Of a DNA stretch of 8,736 nt, positions 52-8,736 are shown in pieces. The notes under the pieces are model-generated. The model was not told the origin of the DNA. It was given only the letters and a program-made list of their open reading frames with translations, and made no database searches. A program made the position numbers and the translations under genes. The stretch lies in IMG/VR virus record IMGVR_UViG_2778261227_000012; one strand, given 5' to 3'. The DNA is from a virus. Its lineage: Duplodnaviria; Heunggongvirae; Uroviricota; Caudoviricetes. How positions within the stretch are numbered: position 1 is the first letter of the stretch; each line of letters starts with the position of its first letter.

Positions 52-145
52 ATGGAAACGTAATTAACTCAATAATCACCGGATGGTGAGAGCTTCCTTT
101 TAGCAGAATTCAGCGCGGTGCAGCGCATATAAAGTGGAGAACGAA

Positions 146-682
146 ATGTCATTTATTAAAACTTTTTCCGGGAAGCATTTTTATTATGACAAGATAAATA
201 AAGACGACATCGTGATTAACGATATCGCAGTTTCCCTTTCAAATATCTGTCGCTTTGCAGGACATCTTTCACACTTCTACAGCGTCGCCCAGCATGCGGT
301 GCTTTGCAGCCAGCTGGTACCGCAGGAATTTGCTTTTGAAGCGTTAATGCATGATGCAACAGAAGCATATTGCCAGGACATCCCCGCTCCACTGAAACGC
401 CTTCTTCCTGACTATAAACGGATGGAAGAAAAAATAGATGCCGTAATCCGTGAGAAATACGGGTTACCCCAGGTTATGAGCACGCCTGTGAAATATGCCG
501 ATCTCATCATGCTGGCAACCGAACGCCGCGATCTCGGGCTTGATGATGGCTCTTTCTGGCCTGTACTGGAAGGCATCCCGGCAACAGAGATGTTCAACGT
601 GATTCCACTGGCACCGGGCCATGCCTACGGGATGTTTATGGAACGTTTTAACGAGTTATCGGAGTTACGCAAATGCGCATGA
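146..682 (+). CDS. HD-domain metal-dependent phosphohydrolase (YfdR-like 5'-deoxynucleotidase family), prophage early-region gene
   Basis: ORF track 134..682; I place the start at ATG 146 (GGAGA 6 nt upstream) rather than GTG 134. Product contains an H...HD motif (AGHLSH...LMHDATEAY) typical of the HD phosphohydrolase superfamily. Named by motif and recollection, not by search. Confidence 0.6.
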   Translation: MSFIKTFSGKHFYYDKINKDDIVINDIAVSLSNICRFAGHLSHFYSVAQHAVLCSQLVPQEFAFEALMHDATEAYCQDIPAPLKRLLPDYKRMEEKIDAVIREKYGLPQVMSTPVKYADLIMLATERRDLGLDDGSFWPVLEGIPATEMFNVIPLAPGHAYGMFMERFNELSELRKCA

Positions 683-1035
683 ATGTTTTCGAAATGGAAG
701 GGTTTCTTCGTGGGAGATGTGTACCGCGAGATCTGAAAGTGAATGAAACAGATGCTGAATACCTGGTACGTAAATTCGATGCGCTTGAAGCTAAATGTGC
801 AGCACTGGAAAACAAAGTAATACCAGTGTCAGCTGAACTGCCGCCAGCAAATGAAAGTGTTCTGTTATTTGATGCTAATGGAGAAGGCTGGCTGATTGGC
901 TGGCGTTCTCTCTGGTACACATGGGGGCAAAAAGAAACCGGAGAATGGCAGTGGACATTTCAGGTCGGGGACCTTGAAAACGTCAATATCACTCACTGGG
1001 CAGTAATGCCGAAAGCACCAGAGACTAAGAAATGA
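673..1035 (+). CDS. Hypothetical prophage protein (YfdS-like, 120 aa), Trp-rich C-terminus
   Basis: ORF with GGAG 8 nt upstream of ATG 673; overlaps the stop of the preceding gene by 10 nt (translational coupling); no recognisable catalytic motif. Confidence 0.45.
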   Translation: MRMNVFEMEGFLRGRCVPRDLKVNETDAEYLVRKFDALEAKCAALENKVIPVSAELPPANESVLLFDANGEGWLIGWRSLWYTWGQKETGEWQWTFQVGDLENVNITHWAVMPKAPETKK

Positions 1036-1247
1036 GCGTGATAAAAACTCATACAGGAATTGTTATCACCCGAGACGGTGAAAAGCGGATGAAATTACAT
1101 TCCACTGAAACGTCCTGGGTTGCCGGACGTTGTGAATCCTACGACAAAAAGACTGGTTACCGTTGGGGTGCACCTAACATGCGTCGCCGTCTGCTACTGG
1201 ACAGCATCAGGCCAATAAAACAGGTAGCAACCAGGGAACAAAATTAA
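1032..1247 (+). CDS. Small hypothetical prophage protein (71 aa)
   Basis: ATGA start/stop overlap with the upstream ORF (1032-1035) suggests coupling in the same operon; basic small protein, function unknown. Confidence 0.35.
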   Translation: MSVIKTHTGIVITRDGEKRMKLHSTETSWVAGRCESYDKKTGYRWGAPNMRRRLLLDSIRPIKQVATREQN

Positions 1248-1294
1248 TTATCAGGACTGGAATTTGATATTACTGCCCGTGTGCAGCGGGCTAA

Positions 1295-1513
1295 GTGGAG
1301 AAACATATGCTGAACCTCGATTGTGTTCCAATCTCAACTTATTGCAAAGAAACTGGCGAAACTCCTGAAGCAATAAACAAACGTGTACAGCGCGGTGTTT
1401 GGCGTGAAGGTGTTCAGGTTTTAAAGGTTGAAGGCGTTAAGGAGAGGTGGATTGATCTTAGTGAGGTTGCAAAATGGGCCAGACAAAACTGCTCAAACTA
1501 CCGCGCGGCGTAA
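1295..1513 (+). CDS. Excisionase-like / small DNA-binding recombination directionality factor candidate
   Basis: 72-aa ORF immediately upstream of and overlapping the integrase start (ATG 1474) by 40 nt, the typical xis-int arrangement; GGAG 8 nt upstream of ATG 1295; basic, Trp-containing pattern (RVQRGVWREG...ERWIDLSEVAKW) resembles Xis/AlpA-type winged-helix proteins. Assignment by context and pattern only. Confidence 0.45.
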   Translation: MEKHMLNLDCVPISTYCKETGETPEAINKRVQRGVWREGVQVLKVEGVKERWIDLSEVAKWARQNCSNYRAA

Positions 1514-2640
1514 CAATCAGGAAACACCGCTAGGGCGAAACGATCAATATAACTTTCACCTACAAAGGAGTTAAATGTCGTGAGCCTCTTTCCAATCTGG
1601 AAGTAACACCAAAGAACATTAAATACGCCGAGCGTACACTCGGCGAAATCCATAATAAGATCGAAAGGGGAACATTCATTTATGCAGAATATTTTCCCCG
1701 TTCTGCTCGTTTGAAAATTTTTGGTAATGCTGCTGCAGGCAAAACGGTAAAGATGTACCTGGACGAATATCTTGAAATCTGCGAAACAAGAAAACTTTCA
1801 CCCTCTACGATTGGTGGCTATAAAAAATGCCGTAGTGCGTTAGCCTCACTTCACATTTGCCCTGCAAGTGAATTAACACCAGCAATCCTGAAAGCGTGGA
1901 TTCAAAGCCAGAAAACGACCTTAAAAACAATTCGCAACCAGTTATCTTTCCTGCGGTCAGCACTTGATGAAGCCGTAACCGATGGGGTACTTCAAATTAA
2001 CCCCGTATCGTTGGTAACTGCTTCGCGCTACCAAAGTGATAAGTCAGAAGCAGAAAGCAGCTATGTGGTTGATCCGCTATCACCAGCAGAAGTTGATGCA
2101 TTACTAGCAGCAGCCGGAAACAAACAATGGGAAAATCTGTTCCGGTTCGCCATACATACAGGCCTGCGTAGTTCTGAATTATGTGCCCTACGATGGCATG
2201 ATATCGACTTTGTTGGAAAAACAGCCCATGTTCAGAGCGCAAGTGTTGTCGGAGTTATCAAAGGAACAAAGACAAAAGCCGGTACCCGTAAAGTTGAACT
2301 GACTGAAGAAGCAATGTTGGCGTTGATAAACCAGAAGCCATTTACATTCATGAAGGATGCTACTGTCTTTGAAGATCCAAAGACCAATAAACCCTGGGCA
2401 AGTGCTGATGCAATTAGGAAAAAAGCATGGGTGCCAACATTGCGAAAAGCAGGTATTCGTTACAGAAACCCATATCAAACCAGGCATACATTCGCCACCA
2501 GACATATCAGCCGGGGAGCAAACCTGTTTTGGCTTGCAGCTCAAATGGGGCATAAAGGGCCTGAGATGCTTTTCAGGCACTATGGCTCATATCTGAAGGA
2601 ATATGATGGACAAACAAGCTTGAAGAAGATAACAATATAA
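1474..2640 (+). pseudogene. Tyrosine recombinase (phage integrase with N-terminal arm-DNA-binding domain) interrupted by an in-frame amber codon TAG at 1531-1533 (codon 20)
   Basis: Frame 1 from ATG 1474 reads MGQTKLLKLPRGVTIRKHR-TAG-GETINITFTYKGVKCREPLSNLEVTPKNIKYAERTLGEIHNKIERGTFIYAEYFPRSAR..., the conserved N-terminal pattern of this integrase family (KLPxGVxIR...I.I.F.Y.G.RCRE.L...N.K.AE.....I..G.F.Y...FP.S), continuous across the stop. Downstream catalytic region looks intact (LRSSELCALRWHDIDF; RHTFATRH; MGHK; RHYGSYL with Tyr). The ORF-track start at 1711 is a TTG with no upstream ATG/GTG in frame. Confidence 0.6.
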
Positions 2641-2657
2641 TCCAAGCATGAAACTAT

Positions 2658-2676
2658 TGGCCACAATTTGTGGCCA
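2658..2676. promoter_or_regulatory. Perfect 9-bp inverted repeat TGGCCACAA-T-TTGTGGCCA followed by TTTT; candidate operator or weak terminator between the integrase and the ATPase gene
   Basis: Read directly; lies 18 nt after the integrase stop and 23 nt before ATG 2699; the 9-mer TGGCCACAA recurs at 4457-4465. Confidence 0.4.
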
Positions 2677-2698
2677 TTTTACGGAGCAAGATAGAAAC

Positions 2699-4432
2699 AT
2701 GGCAAATCAAATTACCAAACTAAAAAATATAAATGTTGTGAAGTTTCGCGGACTGAAAAATATAAACATCGAGTTTGGTTCTCGCCTAACTGTTATTTGT
2801 GGTAAAAATGGCACATCTAAATCCACAATTCTTGGCATTATCGCCCAAATATTTAGCTTTACAAAGGACTTTACCAAAAACCCTGAGACTGATTTAACAC
2901 AATATAAAACATTAACAAATGGCAGCTTCAAGTCAGCTTTCAGCGAACATTTTAGGCTTTCAGAACAATTTGATGTTCCTGGTTCAATGGACGTCAAAAT
3001 TAGTGTCTATGATGGTGCATCGAACAAACATCTTGAAAAACTAACATTAGGTTTATACAGCTACAGTGACAGAGATAAATCAAGGCCTGTAGTCAGGGGA
3101 AATGATTCAATACCGGAAAAAAACCAAAGTAGAAACGTTACTCATCCTGTTATTTTTTTAAGCTTAGCACGACTTCTTCCTATTACATTAAGGACTGATT
3201 ACTCAACACGGGATGTTCAGTACATCAATGAAAATTCTGATGAAATCAGAATGATGAGTAACCAACTCTTACTAAAAAACAATGGAAGCTCAGTAACAGC
3301 AACAAAAGGTACTATCGATTCAATGGTTGTCCATGGTGACAATTATGATCACCAATCAGTATCTGTTGGTGAAGATAATGTTGGACAATTAATCCAAGCA
3401 ATTTTTTCATTTAAAAGATTGAAGGAAACTTATTCTGATTATCATGGCGGAATATTGTTAATTGATGAAGCCGATGCAGGTCTTTTCCCTGCTGCACAGT
3501 TAGAGCTAATTAATATTCTAACTAAAGCAGCAAAACAATACGATCTGCAAATAATCATGACCTCGCACTCTCCATTAATAATAGAGGATATCTATAATCG
3601 TTCAAAACAAGATAGTGATAGCTTTAAAACAATATATCTTACAGACACATATGGAGATATTAAAACAAAGAATAATCTTTCATGGACAGATATCCACGCT
3701 GATTTACATGTTGAAACTGTAAAAATTAATGATGACATTTGTCTTCCAAAGGCAAATGTATATTTTGAAGACAAAGAAGGTTTCGACTTTTTCAAACAAT
3801 TGATAACAGATCGAAAAATAAATAAAATATTAAATCCATTAGGGAATATAAATATTAGCTGCTCTGCCATGCTTGACTTAATGGCAAGAAAAATACCAGA
3901 ATTTACAGCTAAAAGCTTGATCGTCTTAGACGGTGATGTTGTTCACGACAATAGTGCTAATGCAAAAAAAGCCAAAAAAGAAAAAAACTTATGTTTGCTT
4001 CCAAGCACCTTACCTCCAGACCAAATGATTTTTGAGTTTTTATATAATTTACCACCTGATGATGCATATTGGGAAAATAAAAATAAATTTACAAAAGCTG
4101 TTTTTATGAAAACAGCTAAAGACATAATTGCAACGCTAAAGATTGGTAACGCTCCGATTGATTTAAAAATCCTTATAGATAATTATAAAAAAGTTAACAA
4201 AAACCATGGCGGGATAGTTAGAAAACTGTTTAAAGATTTTGCACATACGACTCAATTTCAGGCCCAAGTAAAAGGGCGAGTTAAAGATAACCCATATCGA
4301 TATTGGGTCGAGAAAAATCCTGTGCAATCGGATAGCTTCAAGAATGAACTAATAAAGAGTCTTAAAGTTATTATGACAAGTGGACATGGTGTCGATTCTG
4401 CTACCATCTCATCATATCTGTCAGATAACTAA
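2699..4432 (+). CDS. OLD-family (overcoming lysogenization defect-like) nuclease: N-terminal ABC/AAA_21-type ATPase fused to C-terminal TOPRIM-like domain; candidate anti-phage defence protein
   Basis: Walker A LTVICGKNGTSKSTIL; Walker B GGILLIDEADAGLF; H-loop-like IIMTSHSP; C-terminal TOPRIM-like acidic motifs VYFEDKEGFD and SLIVLDGDVV (DxD). Start chosen at ATG 2699 (GGAG 13 nt upstream; N-terminus then matches the usual IxKLxIxNFRGxK lead-in), but ATG 2648 (ORF-track start) cannot be excluded. Gene is visibly AT-rich relative to flanks. Confidence 0.65.
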   Translation: MANQITKLKNINVVKFRGLKNINIEFGSRLTVICGKNGTSKSTILGIIAQIFSFTKDFTKNPETDLTQYKTLTNGSFKSAFSEHFRLSEQFDVPGSMDVKISVYDGASNKHLEKLTLGLYSYSDRDKSRPVVRGNDSIPEKNQSRNVTHPVIFLSLARLLPITLRTDYSTRDVQYINENSDEIRMMSNQLLLKNNGSSVTATKGTIDSMVVHGDNYDHQSVSVGEDNVGQLIQAIFSFKRLKETYSDYHGGILLIDEADAGLFPAAQLELINILTKAAKQYDLQIIMTSHSPLIIEDIYNRSKQDSDSFKTIYLTDTYGDIKTKNNLSWTDIHADLHVETVKINDDICLPKANVYFEDKEGFDFFKQLITDRKINKILNPLGNINISCSAMLDLMARKIPEFTAKSLIVLDGDVVHDNSANAKKAKKEKNLCLLPSTLPPDQMIFEFLYNLPPDDAYWENKNKFTKAVFMKTAKDIIATLKIGNAPIDLKILIDNYKKVNKNHGGIVRKLFKDFAHTTQFQAQVKGRVKDNPYRYWVEKNPVQSDSFKNELIKSLKVIMTSGHGVDSATISSYLSDN

Positions 4433-4440
4433 TTGATTAA

Positions 4441-4479
4441 AAAGGGCTTTATGTGATGGCCACAAAGCCCTTTTTTTGA
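4441..4479 (+). terminator. Rho-independent terminator: 10-bp stem AAAGGGCTTT/AAAGCCCTTT, 13-nt loop, T6 tail
   Basis: Read directly; lies 9 nt after the ATPase stop; the loop contains TGGCCACAA. Confidence 0.6.
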
Positions 4480-4511
4480 TATACTTTAGATCTGACATTT
4501 AGAGGTATCAT

Positions 4512-5411
4512 ATGCGTTTTAACACCCCACTTCGCTATCCTGGCGGTAAAGGCAAGCTTGCAAATTTCATGCTTCGGCTTATTGAAGAAAATAATCTTTC
4601 GCCTATACATTATGCCGAACCATATGCTGGGGGTGCTGGTTTAGCATTGAAACTGTTACATCTAAATGCAGCTGAAAAAATCATCCTTAATGATATTAAT
4701 ATTTCTGTTTATGCTTTTTGGCACAGTGTATTAAATCATGCAGATCAATTATGTTCTTTAATTGAAAGAACTGAAGTTACAATGGATGAATGGTTTAGGC
4801 AGAAAGATATAATTAATAATCCTAAAGACCATGATCTTTTAACAATTGGTTTCTCAACCTTTTTTCTCAATAGAACAAATCGTTCTGGAATATTAAAAGG
4901 TGGAGTAATTGGCGGTAAAAATCAAGAAGGGAAATGGAAGCTTGACGCTCGCTATAATAAGAGTGATTTGATTTCTCGAATCCATAAAATATCAGAAAAT
5001 CGTCACAGAATAGATTTATATAACATGGATGCAATTGATTTCATTAAAAAAATAGTTATTCAATTGCCACAAAACTCATTAACATATTTGGATCCACCTT
5101 ATTACATAAAAGGTAAAGGTTTATATATCAACCATTATAATCATGATGATCATGTTAGGGTTGCAAAAGTCGTACAGAATAATATTAAAACACCTTGGAT
5201 TGTTTCTTACGATAACACTCCTGAGATCCAAGCTATGTATAAGACATCATCATTAGTATATGGAATAAACTACAGTGCTCAAGATCGGTACAAAGGATCT
5301 GAGGTAATGTTCTTCAGTGAACGATTGAAAATCTTTAAAACAGATGATCCAACTAAGGTAAAAGCGCCTGTATTTAAAAGAGGATGTGTTGACGACCACA
5401 TCCAGACATAA
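4512..5411 (+). CDS. Dam-family (D12 class, alpha-type) DNA N6-adenine methyltransferase
   Basis: Motifs in the order of Dam-family enzymes: RYPGGKGKL (Dam WAGGK-like), EPYAGGAG (AdoMet-binding FxGxG), FFLNRTNRSG (Dam LNRxGxNG-like), LTYLDPPYY (catalytic DPPY); AGAGG RBS 7 nt upstream of ATG; AT-rich. Confidence 0.8.
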   Translation: MRFNTPLRYPGGKGKLANFMLRLIEENNLSPIHYAEPYAGGAGLALKLLHLNAAEKIILNDINISVYAFWHSVLNHADQLCSLIERTEVTMDEWFRQKDIINNPKDHDLLTIGFSTFFLNRTNRSGILKGGVIGGKNQEGKWKLDARYNKSDLISRIHKISENRHRIDLYNMDAIDFIKKIVIQLPQNSLTYLDPPYYIKGKGLYINHYNHDDHVRVAKVVQNNIKTPWIVSYDNTPEIQAMYKTSSLVYGINYSAQDRYKGSEVMFFSERLKIFKTDDPTKVKAPVFKRGCVDDHIQT

Positions 5412-5484
5412 AAGGAGCCGCAAAAGATCCGCAGAATAAAATGGTTAGTATTAATCGTTTTATTTCAGCTAATTATAAAAATAC

Positions 5485-5516
5485 GGACTCGGGTTCAACT
5501 CCCGCCAGCTCCACCA
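5485..5516 (+). other. ssrA: 3'-terminal fragment of tmRNA (ssrA): T-arm plus acceptor 3' strand and CCA; attachment-site (att) remnant marking a mobile-element boundary
   Basis: GGACTCGGGTTCAACTCCCGCCAGCTCCACCA: T-loop TTCAACT, 3' acceptor strand CAGCTCC with the U that forms the G3:U70 alanine-identity wobble, discriminator A, CCA. Upstream sequence is AT-rich and not tmRNA-like, so this is a partial copy, not a complete gene. One T-stem position appears unpaired. Confidence 0.7.
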
Positions 5517-5563
5517 AAATTCTCCATCGGTGATTACCAGAGTCATCCGATGAAGTCCTAAGA

Positions 5564-5595
5564 GCCCGCACGGCGCAAGCCCTGCGGGCTTTTTT
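5564..5595 (+). terminator. GC-rich hairpin (GCCCGCA...TGCGGGC) followed by T6; intrinsic terminator downstream of the tmRNA 3' end
   Basis: Read directly; position matches where a native ssrA terminator would sit. Confidence 0.55.
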
Positions 5596-5649
5596 GTGCC
5601 CTCAATTTGTCCCGCGAAGTCCGAAGAAAACTAATTAAATCCGATCCTT

Positions 5650-5703
5650 TTAGGCACCTTGTTAGGCACCTCATAAAGCTTTATTGTTTTTTGAGGTGCC
5701 TAA
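5650..5703. repeat. Three copies of a 10-bp motif (TTAGGCACCT direct x2 at 5650-5659 and 5662-5671; inverted AGGTGCCTAA at 5694-5703) just upstream of the P4-type integrase start; candidate integrase/regulator binding sites
   Basis: Read directly; 19-28 nt upstream of ATG 5722. Confidence 0.35.
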
Positions 5704-5721
5704 AACTATGGAAACCCGGCA

Positions 5722-6777
5722 ATGGCAAGACAAACCAAACCTCTATCCGTTAAAGAAATAGAATCAGCCAAACCCAAGGAGGCGGACTACGTTCTCTATG
5801 ATGGCGATGGCCTTGAGCTACTCATTAAATCCAGCGGGAGTAAAATCTGGCAGTTTCGCTACATTCGCCCTGTCACCAAGAAACGAGCAAAGAAGAGCAT
5901 AGGCTCCTACCCGTCAGTTACCCTTGCCGATGCCAGAAACTACCGTGCAGAGTCCCGCTCACTACTGGCTAAACAGATCGATCCGCAGGAACATCAGCAA
6001 GAACAATTGCGCAGTTCGCTGGAAGCCAAAACCAACACTTTCCAACTCGTAGCTGAACGTTGGTGGAATGTGAAGAAAGCCAGTGTGACAGAGGACTATG
6101 CGGAAGATATCTGGCGCTCTCTTGAAAGAGACGTCTTTCCTGCGATTGGCGACGTTAGCGTTACAGATATTAAAGCTCATACACTGGTTCAGGCCGTACA
6201 ACCGGTTCAGGCCAGAGGAGCACTGGAAACTGTTCGTCGCCTGTGCCAACGTATTAATGAGGTCATGATCTATGCCCAGAACACAGGGCTGATTGATGCT
6301 GTTCCCAGCGTTAATATCGGTAAAGCCTTCGAGAAGCCTCAGAAAAAGAACATGCCCAGCATTCGACCGGATCAGCTACCTCAGTTAATGCAGACGATGC
6401 GAACAGCCAGCATTAGCCTTTCCACACGCTGCCTGTTCATGTGGCAACTTCTTACTATTACCCGCCCTGCCGAAGCGGCTGAAGCTCTCTGGGAAGAGGT
6501 AGACATAGAAGCGCGAGAGTGGAAGATTCCTGCAGCACGCATGAAAATGAACCGCGACCATACTGTTCCATTGTCAGATGAAGCAATTGCGATACTAGAG
6601 ATGATGAAGCCGTTAAGTGGAAATCGAGAATTTATCTTTCCCAGCCGCATCAAGCCAAACCAGCCGATGAACAGTCAGACCGTAAACGCATCGCTAAAAC
6701 GCGCAGGTTTTGGTGGGGTGCTCGTTTCACACGGCCTGCGATCTATCGCCAGTACAGCCCTTAATGAGCAGGGATGA
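5722..6777 (+). pseudogene. P4/CP4-57 (IntA)-type tyrosine integrase, C-terminally truncated (ends ...SHGLRSIASTALNEQG, before the catalytic tyrosine)
   Basis: N-terminus MARQTKPLSVKEIESAKPKEADYVLYDGDGLELLIKSSGSKIWQFRY is the hallmark of P4-family integrases that follow tRNA/tmRNA genes; the H-G-L-R box is present, but the ORF stops before the conserved downstream segment with the second His and active-site Tyr. No other frame continues the homology, so this is truncation or replacement, not a simple frameshift. Confidence 0.6.
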
Positions 6778-6852
6778 TGCGCCGCGCGATAAACGTACCT
6801 ATTTCCGTGAGATAAATTACATCGCCGCGGCATTTCAATATCAGAAAAAGAA

Positions 6853-7425
6853 TTACAAATCAGCTTGAGTTTGAAGTTCCTCTACAGGGTGATAACGATA
6901 AATCGTCGATATACCGATATCGTAAATAATTGCCAACTGTTTCCTGCTATAGCCATTTTTGATCAGCCTTGCTATTTGTTCATGTTGCTCTTTTGTCAGT
7001 TTCGGACGACGTCCACCAATACGCCCCTGTGCACGTGCTGCTTCAAGTCCGGCCAGTGTTCGTTCAACTATTAATTCACGCTCCATTTCCGCTAAAGCCC
7101 CCATGACGTGAAAAAAGAAACGTCCCATGGGTGTTGACGTATCAATGCTGTCTGTAAGACTACGGAAGTTAACCCCTTTTTCCCGCAGTTCCTCAATAAG
7201 AGTGATGAGGTGTTTCATGCTTCTGCCCAGCCTGTCCAGCTTCCAGACAACGAGCGTATCTCCTTCTGATAACGTTCTGAGCAGCTTTTTCAATCCCGGT
7301 CGGGCTGACTTTGTTCCGCTGATTTTATCCTCAAAAATCAGTTCACATCCTGCGCAGTTCAGTGCGTTTCGTTGTAAATCTGTATTCTGGTCATTTGTTG
7401 ACACACGAATGTAGCCAATTTGCAT
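6853..7425 (-). CDS. Serine recombinase, DNA invertase of the Hin/Gin/Pin/Cin family
   Basis: N-terminus MQIGYIRVSTNDQNTDLQRNAL with catalytic Ser in YIRVSTNDQ; conserved LVVWKLDRLGRS, GRFFFHVMGALAEMERELIVERT, C-terminal HTH (ISTIYRY). True start is the internal ATG at 7425-7423 (AAGAGGA RBS upstream on the minus strand); the 65-codon N-terminal extension in the ORF track is not family-like. Confidence 0.85.
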   Translation of the reverse strand: MQIGYIRVSTNDQNTDLQRNALNCAGCELIFEDKISGTKSARPGLKKLLRTLSEGDTLVVWKLDRLGRSMKHLITLIEELREKGVNFRSLTDSIDTSTPMGRFFFHVMGALAEMERELIVERTLAGLEAARAQGRIGGRRPKLTKEQHEQIARLIKNGYSRKQLAIIYDIGISTIYRYHPVEELQTQADL

Positions 7426-7477
7426 GAAAAATATCCTCTTTGTTTTGTTAAAAATACATAGCTGGTATAGGTGGGAG

Positions 7478-7503
7478 TTAAGACGAAAACGTTGGTTTGG
7501 GGG
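7478..7503. promoter_or_regulatory. Candidate invertase crossover site (AAACGTTGGTTT core, resembling the AAACC-NN-GGTTT core of hix/gix sites), overlapping the start of cassette 1 and lying about 55 bp upstream of the invertase start
   Basis: Sequence AGACGAAAACGTTGGTTTGGGGGAAGG; the same core recurs at the start of cassettes 2 and 3 (about 7962-7987 and 8562-8587). Half-site symmetry is imperfect; exact boundaries are uncertain. Confidence 0.3.
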
Positions 7504-7964
7504 AAGGCTCGGCGCTGCCCGTTGGTGTGCCTGTTCCGTGGCCCTCAGCCACACCACCAACGGGCTGGCTGAAATGTAACGGTGCAGCATTTTCTTCTGA
7601 AATGTATCCCAAACTGGCAAAAGCTTACCCCACCAATAAATTACCGGATTTACGGGGTGAATTTATTCGTGGCTGGGATGATGGGCGGGGAATTGATAAT
7701 AGACGCAACCTACTGTCTGCACAGTCTGACACTATTCAGAATATAGTTGGCACTTTTGGACGAACTCAGCTTTTTAAAGATGCTTTAAATTCAGGGCCAT
7801 TTAGTCAAACTGACTCTATATTATCAGTAGGCTTGCAACCAACTGAGAGTATTGAAGGATATGGCGCCTCTGTATGGACATTCGACGCCTCTCGCTCAGT
7901 TCGCACAGCATCTGAAACACGTCCTCGTAACATTGCGTTTAATTACATCGTAAGGGCGGCATAG
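7482..7964 (+). CDS. Tail-fibre C-terminal cassette 1 (phage tail collar domain + variable receptor-binding core + conserved ...ETRPRNIAFNYIVRAA end); promoterless, no ATG start
   Basis: Open in frame from 7482; conserved motifs PWPSATPPTGWLKCNGAAFSSEMYP...LPDLRGEFIRGWDDGRG (tail collar) and NIAFNYIVRAA (P2 H / T-even fibre-type C-terminus); no ATG or RBS, begins 56 nt from the divergent invertase start. Confidence 0.6.
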   Translation, partial: DENVGLGEGSALPVGVPVPWPSATPPTGWLKCNGAAFSSEMYPKLAKAYPTNKLPDLRGEFIRGWDDGRGIDNRRNLLSAQSDTIQNIVGTFGRTQLFKDALNSGPFSQTDSILSVGLQPTESIEGYGASVWTFDASRSVRTASETRPRNIAFNYIVRAA

Positions 7965-8565
7965 AAACGTTGGTTTGGGGGAAGGCTCTGCACTGCCCGT
8001 TGGTGTGCCTGTTCCGTGGCCCTCAGCCACACCGCCAACAGGGTGGCTGAAATGTAACGGCGCAGCATTTTCTTCTGAAATGTACCCCAATCTGGCACAG
8101 GCTTACCCCACGAATAAATTACCGGATTTACGCGGTGAATTTATCCGTGGCTGGGATGACGGACGTGGCGTGGATGCGTGGCGAACATTACTGAGTGCTC
8201 AGGATTTTGCGTTTGAAGATCATGCTCTGGGGCTACCTACCAATCAGGGATATGCAGGTATTGAGAAAGGTAGCACTGAAAATGATGTTTATGCCGCTTT
8301 CTCTGATGGCATGCACTATACAGGGAATGTAACCAGTAGCGGTCAATGGGATGATTATTCTCAGTCAAAAATTTATATCCGTAGTGATGGTAAGCCTGTC
8401 GGAAATAATATTGAGTTAGCTAACTCAAGTGAGGCTTTGCGTTCTTCTTTGCGTACTTATAGAGCCAGTACAGGATGGTATAACCCAGGACTAAACAAAC
8501 CTAAAACAGCTACAGAAACACGTCCGCGCAACGTTGCTTTTAATTACATCGTAAGAGCCGCATGA
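7954..8565 (+). CDS. Tail-fibre C-terminal cassette 2 (same conserved collar N-block and C-terminal block, different and longer variable core); promoterless
   Basis: Open in frame from 7954, overlapping the cassette 1 stop (7962-7964) by 11 nt in another frame; conserved first ~65 codons and last ~16 codons, divergent middle. Confidence 0.6.
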   Translation, partial: GRHRNVGLGEGSALPVGVPVPWPSATPPTGWLKCNGAAFSSEMYPNLAQAYPTNKLPDLRGEFIRGWDDGRGVDAWRTLLSAQDFAFEDHALGLPTNQGYAGIEKGSTENDVYAAFSDGMHYTGNVTSSGQWDDYSQSKIYIRSDGKPVGNNIELANSSEALRSSLRTYRASTGWYNPGLNKPKTATETRPRNVAFNYIVRAA

Positions 8566-8736
8566 AAACGTTGGTTTGGGGGAAGGCTCTGCACTGCCCG
8601 TTGGTGTGCCTGTTCCGTGGCCCTCAGCCACACCGTCAACAGGGTGGCTGAAATGTAACGGCGCAGCATTTTCTTCTGAAATGTACCCCAAACTGGCACA
8701 GGCTTACCCCACCAATAAATTACCGGATTTACGGGG
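8555..8736 (+). CDS. Tail-fibre C-terminal cassette 3, partial (runs off the window end); same conserved collar N-block
   Basis: Open in frame from 8555, overlapping the cassette 2 stop (8563-8565); sequence to 8736 repeats the conserved 5' block and mixes variants seen in copies 1 and 2. Confidence 0.55.

What the first reader, a model, noticed from the sequence alone, without database searches (positions are those of the whole stretch)
5485..5600. tmRNA (ssrA) 3'-end copy marks an att boundary: two different elements stacked at the same insertion site
The 32-nt tmRNA-type 3' end (with the G:U-pair U and CCA) plus a terminator sits between the int/cargo module on the left and a P4/CP4-57-type integrase on the right. 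Established: P4-type elements integrate into the 3' end of ssrA and carry their integrase immediately downstream. Inference: the left prophage and the right island are tandem insertions at ssrA, with this fragment acting as attR of one and attL of the other; the unpaired T-stem position suggests it is the displaced partial copy, not the functional gene end.
Basis: partly seen in the sequence, partly recalled or inferred. Interest (0 to 1): 0.5.

Follow-up and report, generated by a model that had tools for sequence, protein, structure and literature searches.

The report
Displaced ssrA end between stacked elements
A 34-base copy of the end of the tmRNA gene marks where a lambda-like prophage ends and a CP4-57-like island begins, a well-known stacking of mobile elements at this E. 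coli hotspot, so the finding is correct but ordinary.

Summary
Window 5484-5517 matches the 3' end of E. coli ssrA at 33 of 34 bases, and 5490-5517 is an exact 28-base block. There is no tmRNA body upstream. The trailer and terminator that follow (hairpin and T-run at 5560-5595) are the ones that follow ssrA in K-12.

The fragment is the right end of a phiNP/LLS-type lambdoid prophage and also the left end of a CP4-57-like island.
- In two complete genomes with the same junction, the intact ssrA lies 47-56 kb upstream in the same orientation, with the prophage in between.
- One metagenomic contig carries ssrA joined directly to the same island, without the prophage.
- The same prophage end abuts three different P4-type islands in other strains.
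- Free phage LLS has an integrase 87% identical to this prophage family's. Its attP carries the ssrA core plus the trailer and terminator now found after the intact gene.
- The T at 5489 lies at the edge of the prophage-derived left arm. It is not decay of a host copy.

Both flanking integrases are dead in this strain. The left one has an amber stop at codon 20. The right one is cut at codon 351 by a Mu-like prophage. Tandem arrays at ssrA are already described (Williams 2003; Islander), so interest is low.

The parts
134..682 (+). yfdR-like 5'-deoxynucleotidase, an early-left gene of the lambdoid prophage
   Evidence: Weak Pfam YfbR-like hit, just below the curated cutoff. Annotated yfdR in near-identical genomes.
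1307..1513 (+). Putative excisionase, overlapping the start of the integrase gene
   Evidence: Same position as the annotated xis of phage phiNP and the 'putative excisionase' of phage LLS. No Pfam hit, so this is inferred from position.
1474..2640 (+). Lambdoid-prophage tyrosine integrase, inactivated by an amber codon (TAG at 1531-1533, codon 20)
   Evidence: Translation shows the stop. Four relatives have CAG at that codon. The intact homologue has Arm-DNA-bind_2 and Phage_integrase domains and is 87% identical to the phage LLS integrase. A contig from SRR3957182 (L012) is 100% identical to window 616-7510, a span that includes this codon.
2699..4432 (+). AAA_15/AAA_21 ATPase, low-GC cargo between the integrase and the att site
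   Evidence: Pfam and PADLOC hits. GC content 30-35%.
4512..5411 (+). D12-class DNA adenine methylase, cargo
   Evidence: Pfam MethyltransfD12. Full-length match to PADLOC PD-Lambda-5_B, E = 5e-124.
5412..5489 (+). Prophage-derived left arm of the junction, ending with the T at 5489 that differs from ssrA
   Evidence: The 45 bases shown upstream of the core are identical in four genomes carrying this prophage module next to different islands. 85 complete genomes match at least 80% of window 5290-5520.
5490..5517 (+). 28-base block identical to the ssrA 3' end (T-stem/T-loop, acceptor strand, CCA and one A); the crossover region of the lambdoid integrase
   Evidence: Exact in the intact ssrA, the window and phage LLS attP; the arms differ on either side.
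5502..5517 (+). Segment shared with the CP4-57-type att core (last 15 bases of ssrA and one A)
   Evidence: By homology to K-12, where the CP4-57 feature starts 15 bases inside ssrA and psaA is the far-end copy.
5518..5597 (+). Island-borne ssrA trailer with a hairpin (5525-5552) and an intrinsic terminator (5560-5595)
   Evidence: Identical to the sequence following ssrA in K-12. Folding and terminator scan. The Rfam IsrM hit covers only the terminator.
5648..5705 (.). Two direct copies of TTAGGCACCT (5650-5659, 5662-5671) and one inverted copy (5694-5703) just upstream of the integrase start; putative Int-binding sites
   Evidence: Repeat search. K-12 and DETEC-C31 show the same geometry with different motif sequences; the 042 arm shows only a weaker version of the pattern. 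Function is inferred.
5722..6774 (+). P4/CP4-57-type integrase truncated after codon 351 of 413, so the catalytic-tyrosine region is lost
   Evidence: Pfam domains, with the catalytic-domain match stopping at profile position 144 of 172. 85% identical to K-12 IntA. Identity to the intact gene ends at 6775/6776.
6775..8736 (.). End of a Mu-like transposable prophage inserted in the integrase gene. Terminal TG at 6775; serine invertase at 6853-7425 (-); tail-fibre C-terminal cassettes at 7497-7964, 7975-8565 and 8576-8736 (+)
   Evidence: The same end lies next to the same invertase gene in 10 genomes with different flanking genes. In strain M-17 it interrupts otsA and is followed by Mu-like morphogenesis genes. 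Pfam Resolvase and Collar domains. Three 231-base direct repeats.

Best explanation
The fragment is the displaced original 3' end of ssrA, and it is a junction between two independently integrated elements.

Order of events (inferred). A CP4-57-like island first occupied ssrA. It used the last ~15 bases of the gene and supplied its own trailer and terminator. A lambdoid phage of the phiNP/LLS type then recombined with the occupied ssrA.

The phage's attP. It carries an ssrA look-alike (T-loop to CCA) followed by its own trailer and terminator.

The crossover. It took place within the 28-base identity block CGGGTTCAACTCCCGCCAGCTCCACCAA.

The result. The gene was rebuilt from the host body plus the phage-borne 3' flank. 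The old 3' end, still attached to the island, was pushed about 50 kb downstream.

Structure of window 5484-5517. The prophage left arm lies to the left, the shared core is in the middle, and the island arm lies to the right. This makes it the right att site of the prophage and the left att site of the island.

Polarity. The two elements have opposite polarity relative to ssrA, which is why two integrase genes flank one fragment.

State in this strain. Both integrases are inactivated: an amber codon in one and a Mu-like prophage insertion in the other. The array is most likely immobile unless integrase is supplied in trans.
For: Identity of the fragment with ssrA, and absence of a gene body.

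Intact ssrA upstream in the same orientation, with the prophage between, in two complete genomes that share the junction.

The four att configurations were recovered.
- attB-like: contig ERR6160529_220 has smpB and a complete ssrA 3' portion joined to the same island arm. It matches the window at 1284 of 1285 bases from the core onward, with no prophage.
- attP: free phage LLS carries a left arm, the core and the trailer TCATGATTGG... with a terminator. Its integrase is 87% identical to this prophage family's integrase.
- attL: the intact ssrA followed by that same trailer.
- attR: the window.

The prophage-sized record of phage phiNP starts and ends with the core, and its right end stops exactly at window 5516.

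Module independence: the same prophage end lies next to three different island arms, and the stacking order differs in ECO21.

The K-12 annotation of CP4-57 and psaA defines the island's core.

Frequency: 85 of 5426 complete genomes match at least 80% of the methylase-end-plus-fragment stretch, window 5290-5520. Seven match at least 80% of window 5380-5720, which runs from the methylase end through the fragment and this island's arm.

Integrase defects.
Against: The window is a whole contig of a draft assembly. The intact ssrA and the far ends of both elements could therefore not be seen in the source genome itself.

No far-end repeat of the island was found within 20 kb downstream in WP5-W18-ESBL-11. 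There the ypjA end is truncated next to IS3 copies. In NWU_3 the region beyond the island is rearranged.

The order of arrival of the two elements is inferred, not shown.

No recombination was tested experimentally.

The amber codon could in principle be a sequencing error. However, a contig from SRR3957182 is 100% identical to window 616-7510, a span that includes the codon.
Confidence: 0.92

Rival explanations
1. The structure is the same but the order was reversed. The lambdoid phage integrated first into an unoccupied ssrA. The CP4-57-like island later integrated into the displaced fragment rather than into the intact gene.
For: The displaced fragment keeps the full 15-base island core, so it would be a usable target. 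ECO21 shows that the stacking order can vary. The end product would be identical.
Against: About 2,200 complete genomes match part of window 5380-5720. Many listed hits cover only the ssrA core and island arm without the prophage end, and K-12 and ERR6160529_220 show the arm joined directly to intact ssrA.

Only 85 complete genomes match at least 80% of window 5290-5520, the prophage end plus fragment.

A prophage module 98-99% identical sits next to three different islands. This fits a recent phage entering sites that were already occupied.
Confidence: 0.2
2. The region is one composite element: a lambdoid prophage that carries a second, P4-type integrase as cargo. The ssrA-like stretch would then be an internal relic, not a boundary.
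For: The two integrase genes are only about 3 kb apart and lie in the same orientation.
Against: The free phage genome LLS has its attP exactly where the fragment sits, with no P4-type integrase beyond it. The phiNP record ends at 5516. The island occurs without the prophage. The prophage occurs with other islands.
Confidence: 0.03
3. The stretch is the true 3' end of a functional tmRNA gene, or else a chance or assembly artefact.
For: Sub-threshold Rfam tmRNA hit. The contig is short and comes from a draft assembly.
Against: ARAGORN finds nothing. A methylase gene ends 72 bases upstream of the fragment. The T-stem base at 5489 is mismatched. There were no matches in 200 shuffles. The identical junction occurs in seven closed genomes and in a contig from another sequencing run.
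Confidence: 0.01

Closest known systems
attL of cryptic prophage CP4-57 in E. coli K-12 (the ssrA-intA junction, with psaA at the far end)
   Same: The core, trailer and terminator (window 5490 to about 5625) are identical or nearly identical to K-12. The integrase is 85% identical to IntA over 351 residues. The layout of two direct repeats and one inverted repeat before the integrase start is the same.
   Different: The tmRNA body upstream is replaced by the end of a lambdoid prophage. The repeat motif is TTAGGCACCT rather than TAGGCCCA. The integrase lacks its last 62 residues because of a Mu-like prophage insertion.
attP and attR of ssrA-integrating lambdoid phages: Escherichia phage LLS (PQ299149, where a 'tmRNA pseudogene' is annotated) and Citrobacter phage phiNP (OR565852)
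   Same: Gene order is yfdR-like, xis, int, cargo, then att. The LLS integrase is 87% identical to the intact integrase of this prophage family. The integrase-to-att module is 84.5% identical in DNA to phiNP. The ssrA core is the same, and the trailer and terminator are phage-borne.
   Different: The cargo between int and att differs: ATPase plus methylase here and an ATPase in phiNP, but an unrelated gene in LLS. The T-stem mismatch sits at a different base in each phage. The integrase here carries an amber codon.
[quoted passage not shown]
   Same: The regenerated gene and a displaced 3' fragment in the same orientation delimit each element. Each array member has its own fragment and integrase. 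The tmRNA gene is the most enriched target. These principles are stated in PMC4383910. Tandem ssrA islands are also described in Dehalococcoides, PMC3146451.
   Different: Nothing differs in kind. Here one fragment serves two elements because they have opposite polarity, and both integrases are broken. The Williams 2003 paper could not be read in the library and is cited from a reference list and from my own knowledge.

Membership tests
Displaced tDNA fragment marking the end of an integrative element (Islander criteria) | The fragment matches the 3' end of the target gene far beyond chance | tested here: met
   33 of 34 bases match and 28 are exact. No matches in 200 shuffles.
Displaced tDNA fragment marking the end of an integrative element (Islander criteria) | An intact target gene lies in the same replicon, in the same orientation, at element distance | tested here: inconclusive
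   Met in two closed genomes with the same junction, at 47 kb and 56 kb. Not testable in the source genome, because the window is a whole draft contig.
Displaced tDNA fragment marking the end of an integrative element (Islander criteria) | An integrase gene lies inside the interval | tested here: met
   Tyrosine integrase at 1474-2640, though with an amber codon at codon 20.
Displaced tDNA fragment marking the end of an integrative element (Islander criteria) | The element carries a replacement for the displaced gene end (an attP with a gene look-alike) | tested here: met
   Free phage LLS attP carries the core plus a trailer and terminator. The same trailer follows the intact ssrA in lysogens.
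P4/CP4-57-type integrase island at ssrA | Integrase with a P4-type arm-binding domain (Arm-DNA-bind_3), a central domain and a catalytic domain | tested here: met
   All three Pfam domains are present. 85% identical to K-12 IntA.
P4/CP4-57-type integrase island at ssrA | A complete catalytic domain including the C-terminal tyrosine, that is, an active integrase | tested here: not met
   The protein ends at residue 351 of 413. The Pfam match stops at profile position 144 of 172. Identity to the intact gene ends at 6775/6776.
P4/CP4-57-type integrase island at ssrA | The integrase gene lies immediately downstream of the ssrA 3' end, with a second short ssrA repeat at the island's far end | tested here: inconclusive
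   The first half is met in the window. The far-end repeat is seen only in K-12, as psaA. It was not found within 20 kb downstream in WP5-W18-ESBL-11, and it lies outside the window.
Mu-like transposable prophage (the insertion in the integrase gene) | The same element end lies at many unrelated chromosomal positions | tested here: met
   Ten genomes carry the end with differing flanking genes, among them otsA, wzz(fepE) and a lom-family gene.
Mu-like transposable prophage (the insertion in the integrase gene) | Mu-type gene content and a terminal TG | tested here: met
   In M-17 the end is followed by the invertase, tail-fibre cassettes, a contractile tail, and genes for a virion morphogenesis protein, a head morphogenesis protein and a DUF935 protein. 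The element starts with TG at 6775. The transposase genes and the target duplication lie outside the window and were not examined.
tmRNA gene (Rfam RF00023) | A full-length match at or above the gathering score, or an ARAGORN call | tested here: not met
   24.7 bits against a gathering score of 47. ARAGORN finds none.

The most novel reading that the evidence does not exclude
The displaced tRNA-like end, its trailer and its terminator might be transcribed by read-through from the prophage methylase gene. This would give a stable, CCA-bearing mini-tmRNA fragment with a function of its own, for example titrating SmpB or alanyl-tRNA synthetase. The independent loss of both integrases might then reflect selection to keep the array in place. 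Nothing here tests expression. No promoter-like site was found in 5300-5800. In K-12 psaA and in the KSC64 fragment the U of the G:U pair is deleted, which argues against conservation of such a function.
Probability: 0.03. Interest if true: 0.5.

Novelty: already known. Interest (0 to 1): 0.15.

Why it matters
The main use is annotation. The fragment gives base-precise boundaries for three mobile elements in a short draft contig: a phiNP/LLS-type lambdoid prophage, a CP4-57-like island and a Mu-like prophage. It also shows that this strain's array at ssrA is probably locked, because both site-specific integrases are broken.

It illustrates that each element entering ssrA brings its own replacement 3' end, trailer and terminator. 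As a result, tmRNA 3' processing signals differ between strains according to which element arrived last.

None of this changes current understanding of integration at tmRNA genes.

Tried and rejected
1. Rfam hits other than tmRNA. The IsrM hit (32 bits against a gathering score of 376) aligns only over the terminator hairpin. The Tymovirus tRNA-like hit has E = 0.28. Both were dismissed.

2. The island's far-end repeat. A short-word BLAST of window 5470-5720 against 20 kb downstream in WP5-W18-ESBL-11 found no second ssrA copy. There the ypjA end is truncated next to IS3 copies. In NWU_3 the DNA beyond the island is from an unrelated chromosomal region (yghU, gss), so it was no help.

3. My first reading of the sequence after the intact ssrA. 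I took TCATGATTGG... to be simply phage DNA. I then saw that it is 91% identical to the flank beyond psaA in K-12, and considered that the prophage might lie downstream of ssrA rather than in it. This was resolved by the phage LLS attP, which carries the same trailer and terminator, and by ECO21, where the trailer stays attached to the prophage's restriction-endonuclease gene behind a different displaced fragment.

4. Williams 2003 (PMC142792) is not held in the library.

5. No complete E. coli genome in the collection covers more than 78% of the window. The source turned out to be a draft contig.

6. The PD-Lambda-5 A component is not among the 25 best PADLOC hits of the ATPase. The cargo pair therefore cannot be called PD-Lambda-5 on this evidence.

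Full report
WHAT IS THERE

Window 5485-5516 reads GGACTCGGGTTCAACTCCCGCCAGCTCCACCA. I compared it with the annotated ssrA of K-12 and of two other complete E. coli genomes.
- The match extends over 5484-5517 at 33 of 34 bases. The single difference is T for G at 5489.
- Bases 5490-5517 form an exact 28-base block.
- A search for the 27-base core with up to three mismatches found one site in the window and none in 200 shuffles.

The stretch is not a gene.
- ARAGORN finds no tmRNA or tRNA in the window.
- The Rfam tmRNA hit is below threshold, at 24.7 bits against 47, and is convincing only over the 3' end.
- A methylase gene ends at 5411, 72 bases upstream of the fragment.

A hairpin at 5525-5552 and an intrinsic terminator at 5560-5595 follow the fragment.

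SURROUNDINGS

The window is E. coli DNA. It is an entire 8,736-base contig (NLUL01000064.1) of draft assembly GCA_002232775.1.

Left of the fragment lies the early-left end of a lambdoid prophage:
- a yfdR-like gene;
- a putative excisionase;
- a tyrosine integrase with an Arm-DNA-bind_2 domain (1474-2640);
- a low-GC cargo pair, an AAA_15/21 ATPase and a D12 methylase.

Right of the fragment lie the trailer and terminator, then a set of TTAGGCACCT repeats, then a P4-type integrase. That integrase is 85% identical to K-12 IntA.

WHERE THE REAL GENE IS

Complete genomes WP5-W18-ESBL-11 and KSC64 carry the same junction. In both, smpB and an intact ssrA lie 47 kb and 56 kb upstream, in the same orientation as the fragment. 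A complete-looking lambdoid prophage fills the interval.

THE FOUR ATT CONFIGURATIONS

- attB-like. Contig ERR6160529_220 has smpB, ssrA (the last 340 bases before the core are identical to K-12) and then the same island arm and integrase. From the core onward 1284 of 1285 bases are identical to the window. There is no prophage. K-12 has the same layout with CP4-57.
- attP. Escherichia phage LLS is a free phage isolated on K-12. Its integrase is 87% identical to the intact integrase of this prophage family, and it has the same gene order. Immediately after its cargo gene it carries ...GAATTACGGGCG, then the core CGGGTTCAACTCCCGCCAGCTCCACCAA, then TCATGATTGGAC... and a terminator. The depositors annotate a 'tmRNA pseudogene' there.
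- attL. In lysogens the intact ssrA is followed by that same TCATGATTGG... trailer.
- attR. This is the window: prophage left arm, core, then the island arm AATTCTCC....

The sequences to the left of 5490 and to the right of 5517 switch partners between these four sites. The crossover must therefore lie within 5490-5517.

The record of Citrobacter phage phiNP is 84.5% identical in DNA across the integrase-to-att module. It begins and ends with the core, and it stops exactly at window 5516.

THE TWO ELEMENTS ARE INDEPENDENT

- The same prophage end, with 45 identical bases upstream of the core, abuts three different P4-type island arms. These are the window type, E. coli 042 and DETEC-C31. They diverge within a few bases after CCACCAAA.
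- In ECO21 a different island lies between ssrA and the prophage. The phage-type trailer stays attached to the prophage's restriction-endonuclease gene, behind a different displaced fragment.
- 85 of 5426 complete genomes match at least 80% of window 5290-5520, the methylase end plus the fragment.
- Seven match at least 80% of window 5380-5720, which adds this island's arm.
- About 2,200 genomes match part of window 5380-5720. Many listed hits cover only the ssrA core and island arm.

This pattern favours a recent phage entering sites that were already occupied. The order of events remains an inference.

THE ISLAND'S OWN CORE

K-12 annotates CP4-57 as starting 15 bases inside ssrA. It annotates a 14-base pseudo-copy, psaA, at the far end of the island. 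By homology the island core corresponds to window 5502-5517.

The far end of the island is not in the window. I could not find it in the two relatives I examined, which have an IS3-associated truncation and a rearrangement respectively.

- The T at 5489 lies at the edge of the prophage-derived left arm, just outside the exact block. Phages phiNP (GCTGG) and LLS (GGGCG) each have a different mismatch in the same strand of the T-stem. It is not decay of a host copy.
- The terminator at 5560-5595 belongs to the island arm. In K-12 it follows ssrA directly, so it probably serves there as the ssrA terminator.
- The three island arms differ in sequence, yet all keep a near-identical terminator hairpin.

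STATE OF THE ARRAY IN THIS STRAIN

The left integrase has TAG at codon 20 (1531-1533), where four relatives have CAG. Any restart product would lack the arm-binding domain.

The right integrase is identical to the intact gene up to 6775 and then diverges.
- The inserted DNA starts with TG.
- It lies next to the same serine invertase gene in ten genomes with unrelated flanking genes.
- In strain M-17 it interrupts otsA and is followed by Mu-like morphogenesis genes.

It is therefore the end of a Mu-like transposable prophage. The integrase loses its last 62 residues, including the region that holds the catalytic tyrosine.

A contig from SRR3957182 is 100% identical to window 616-7510. That span includes both the amber codon and the Mu-like junction. 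Whether that run comes from a different isolate was not checked.

COMPARISON WITH WHAT IS KNOWN

Regeneration of the target gene, a displaced 3' fragment in the same orientation, and tandem arrays in which each member has its own fragment and integrase are the stated operating principles of the Islander database. That paper also notes that the tmRNA gene is the most enriched target (PMC4383910).

Tandem ssrA islands are described in detail for Dehalococcoides (PMC3146451).

[quoted passage not shown] I could not read it here, so I cite it from reference lists and from my own knowledge.

VERDICT

The finding is a correct recognition of a known arrangement. The useful additions are:
- the base-precise crossover window;
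- the demonstration that the trailer and terminator travel with each element;
- the two broken integrases;
- the Mu-like insertion.

Noticed in passing
window 1531-1533: The lambdoid integrase has an in-frame TAG at codon 20 where four close relatives have CAG. A contig from SRR3957182 is 100% identical to window 616-7510, which includes this codon.
   Followed up: yes
window 6775-8736: The P4-type integrase gene is interrupted after codon 351 by the end of a Mu-like transposable prophage. The same end occurs in ten complete genomes at unrelated positions, for example inside otsA in strain M-17.
   Followed up: yes
window 7427-8736: Three direct copies of a 231-base segment (7427, 7905, 8506) form the constant 5' parts of successive tail-fibre C-terminal cassettes. 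All three lie on the same strand, next to a serine invertase gene at 6853-7425. This looks like a multi-cassette host-range switching region of the Gin/Cin/Min type. No crossover sites were mapped.
   Followed up: partly
window 2699-5411: A low-GC (30-35%) cargo pair lies between the integrase and the att site. The methylase matches PADLOC PD-Lambda-5_B at full length (E = 5e-124). The AAA_15/21 ATPase matches PtuA, GajA and AriA-type models only through its ATPase domain, and PD-Lambda-5_A is not among its 25 best hits. This is probably a prophage-borne defence module. PD-lambda-5 is described as a compact prophage RM+Abi system in PMC9519451.
   Followed up: partly
window 5648-5705; L006 1089-1143; L005 11627-11682; L004 11641-11679: P4-type island arms carry two direct repeats 12 bases apart and one inverted copy just upstream of the integrase start. 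This is clear in the window (TTAGGCACCT), K-12 (TAGGCCCA) and DETEC-C31 (GGTACACG), where the motif differs with the integrase. The 042 arm shows only a weaker version of the pattern. This is consistent with integrase-specific arm-type or operator sites.
   Followed up: partly
window 5560-5595; L004 11551-11585; L005 11550-11585: Three island arms that otherwise differ in sequence all keep a near-identical terminator hairpin (AGCCCGCAC.GC.CAAGC.CTGCGGGCTTTTTT) about 45 bases after the CCA. The lambdoid phages supply a different terminator. Each element therefore brings its own ssrA trailer and terminator.
   Followed up: partly
L003 11492-11516 (KSC64); L006 22973-22986 (K-12 psaA): In the displaced copies of KSC64 and K-12 the T that encodes the U of the acceptor-stem G:U pair is deleted (CCAGC-CCACCA). 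It is intact in the window.
   Followed up: no
L018 23587-36982 (KSC64): In KSC64 the large-terminase gene of the ssrA lambdoid prophage is split by an inserted element. That element carries its own tyrosine recombinase, a primase and capsid-related genes. It resembles the helper-embedded satellites described in PMC10111431.
   Followed up: no
L006 22987-23137 against L002 26759-26912: The K-12 flank beyond psaA is 91% identical to the phage-borne ssrA trailer. The phage family therefore seems to have captured an enterobacterial ssrA trailer and terminator along with the gene's 3' end.
   Followed up: partly
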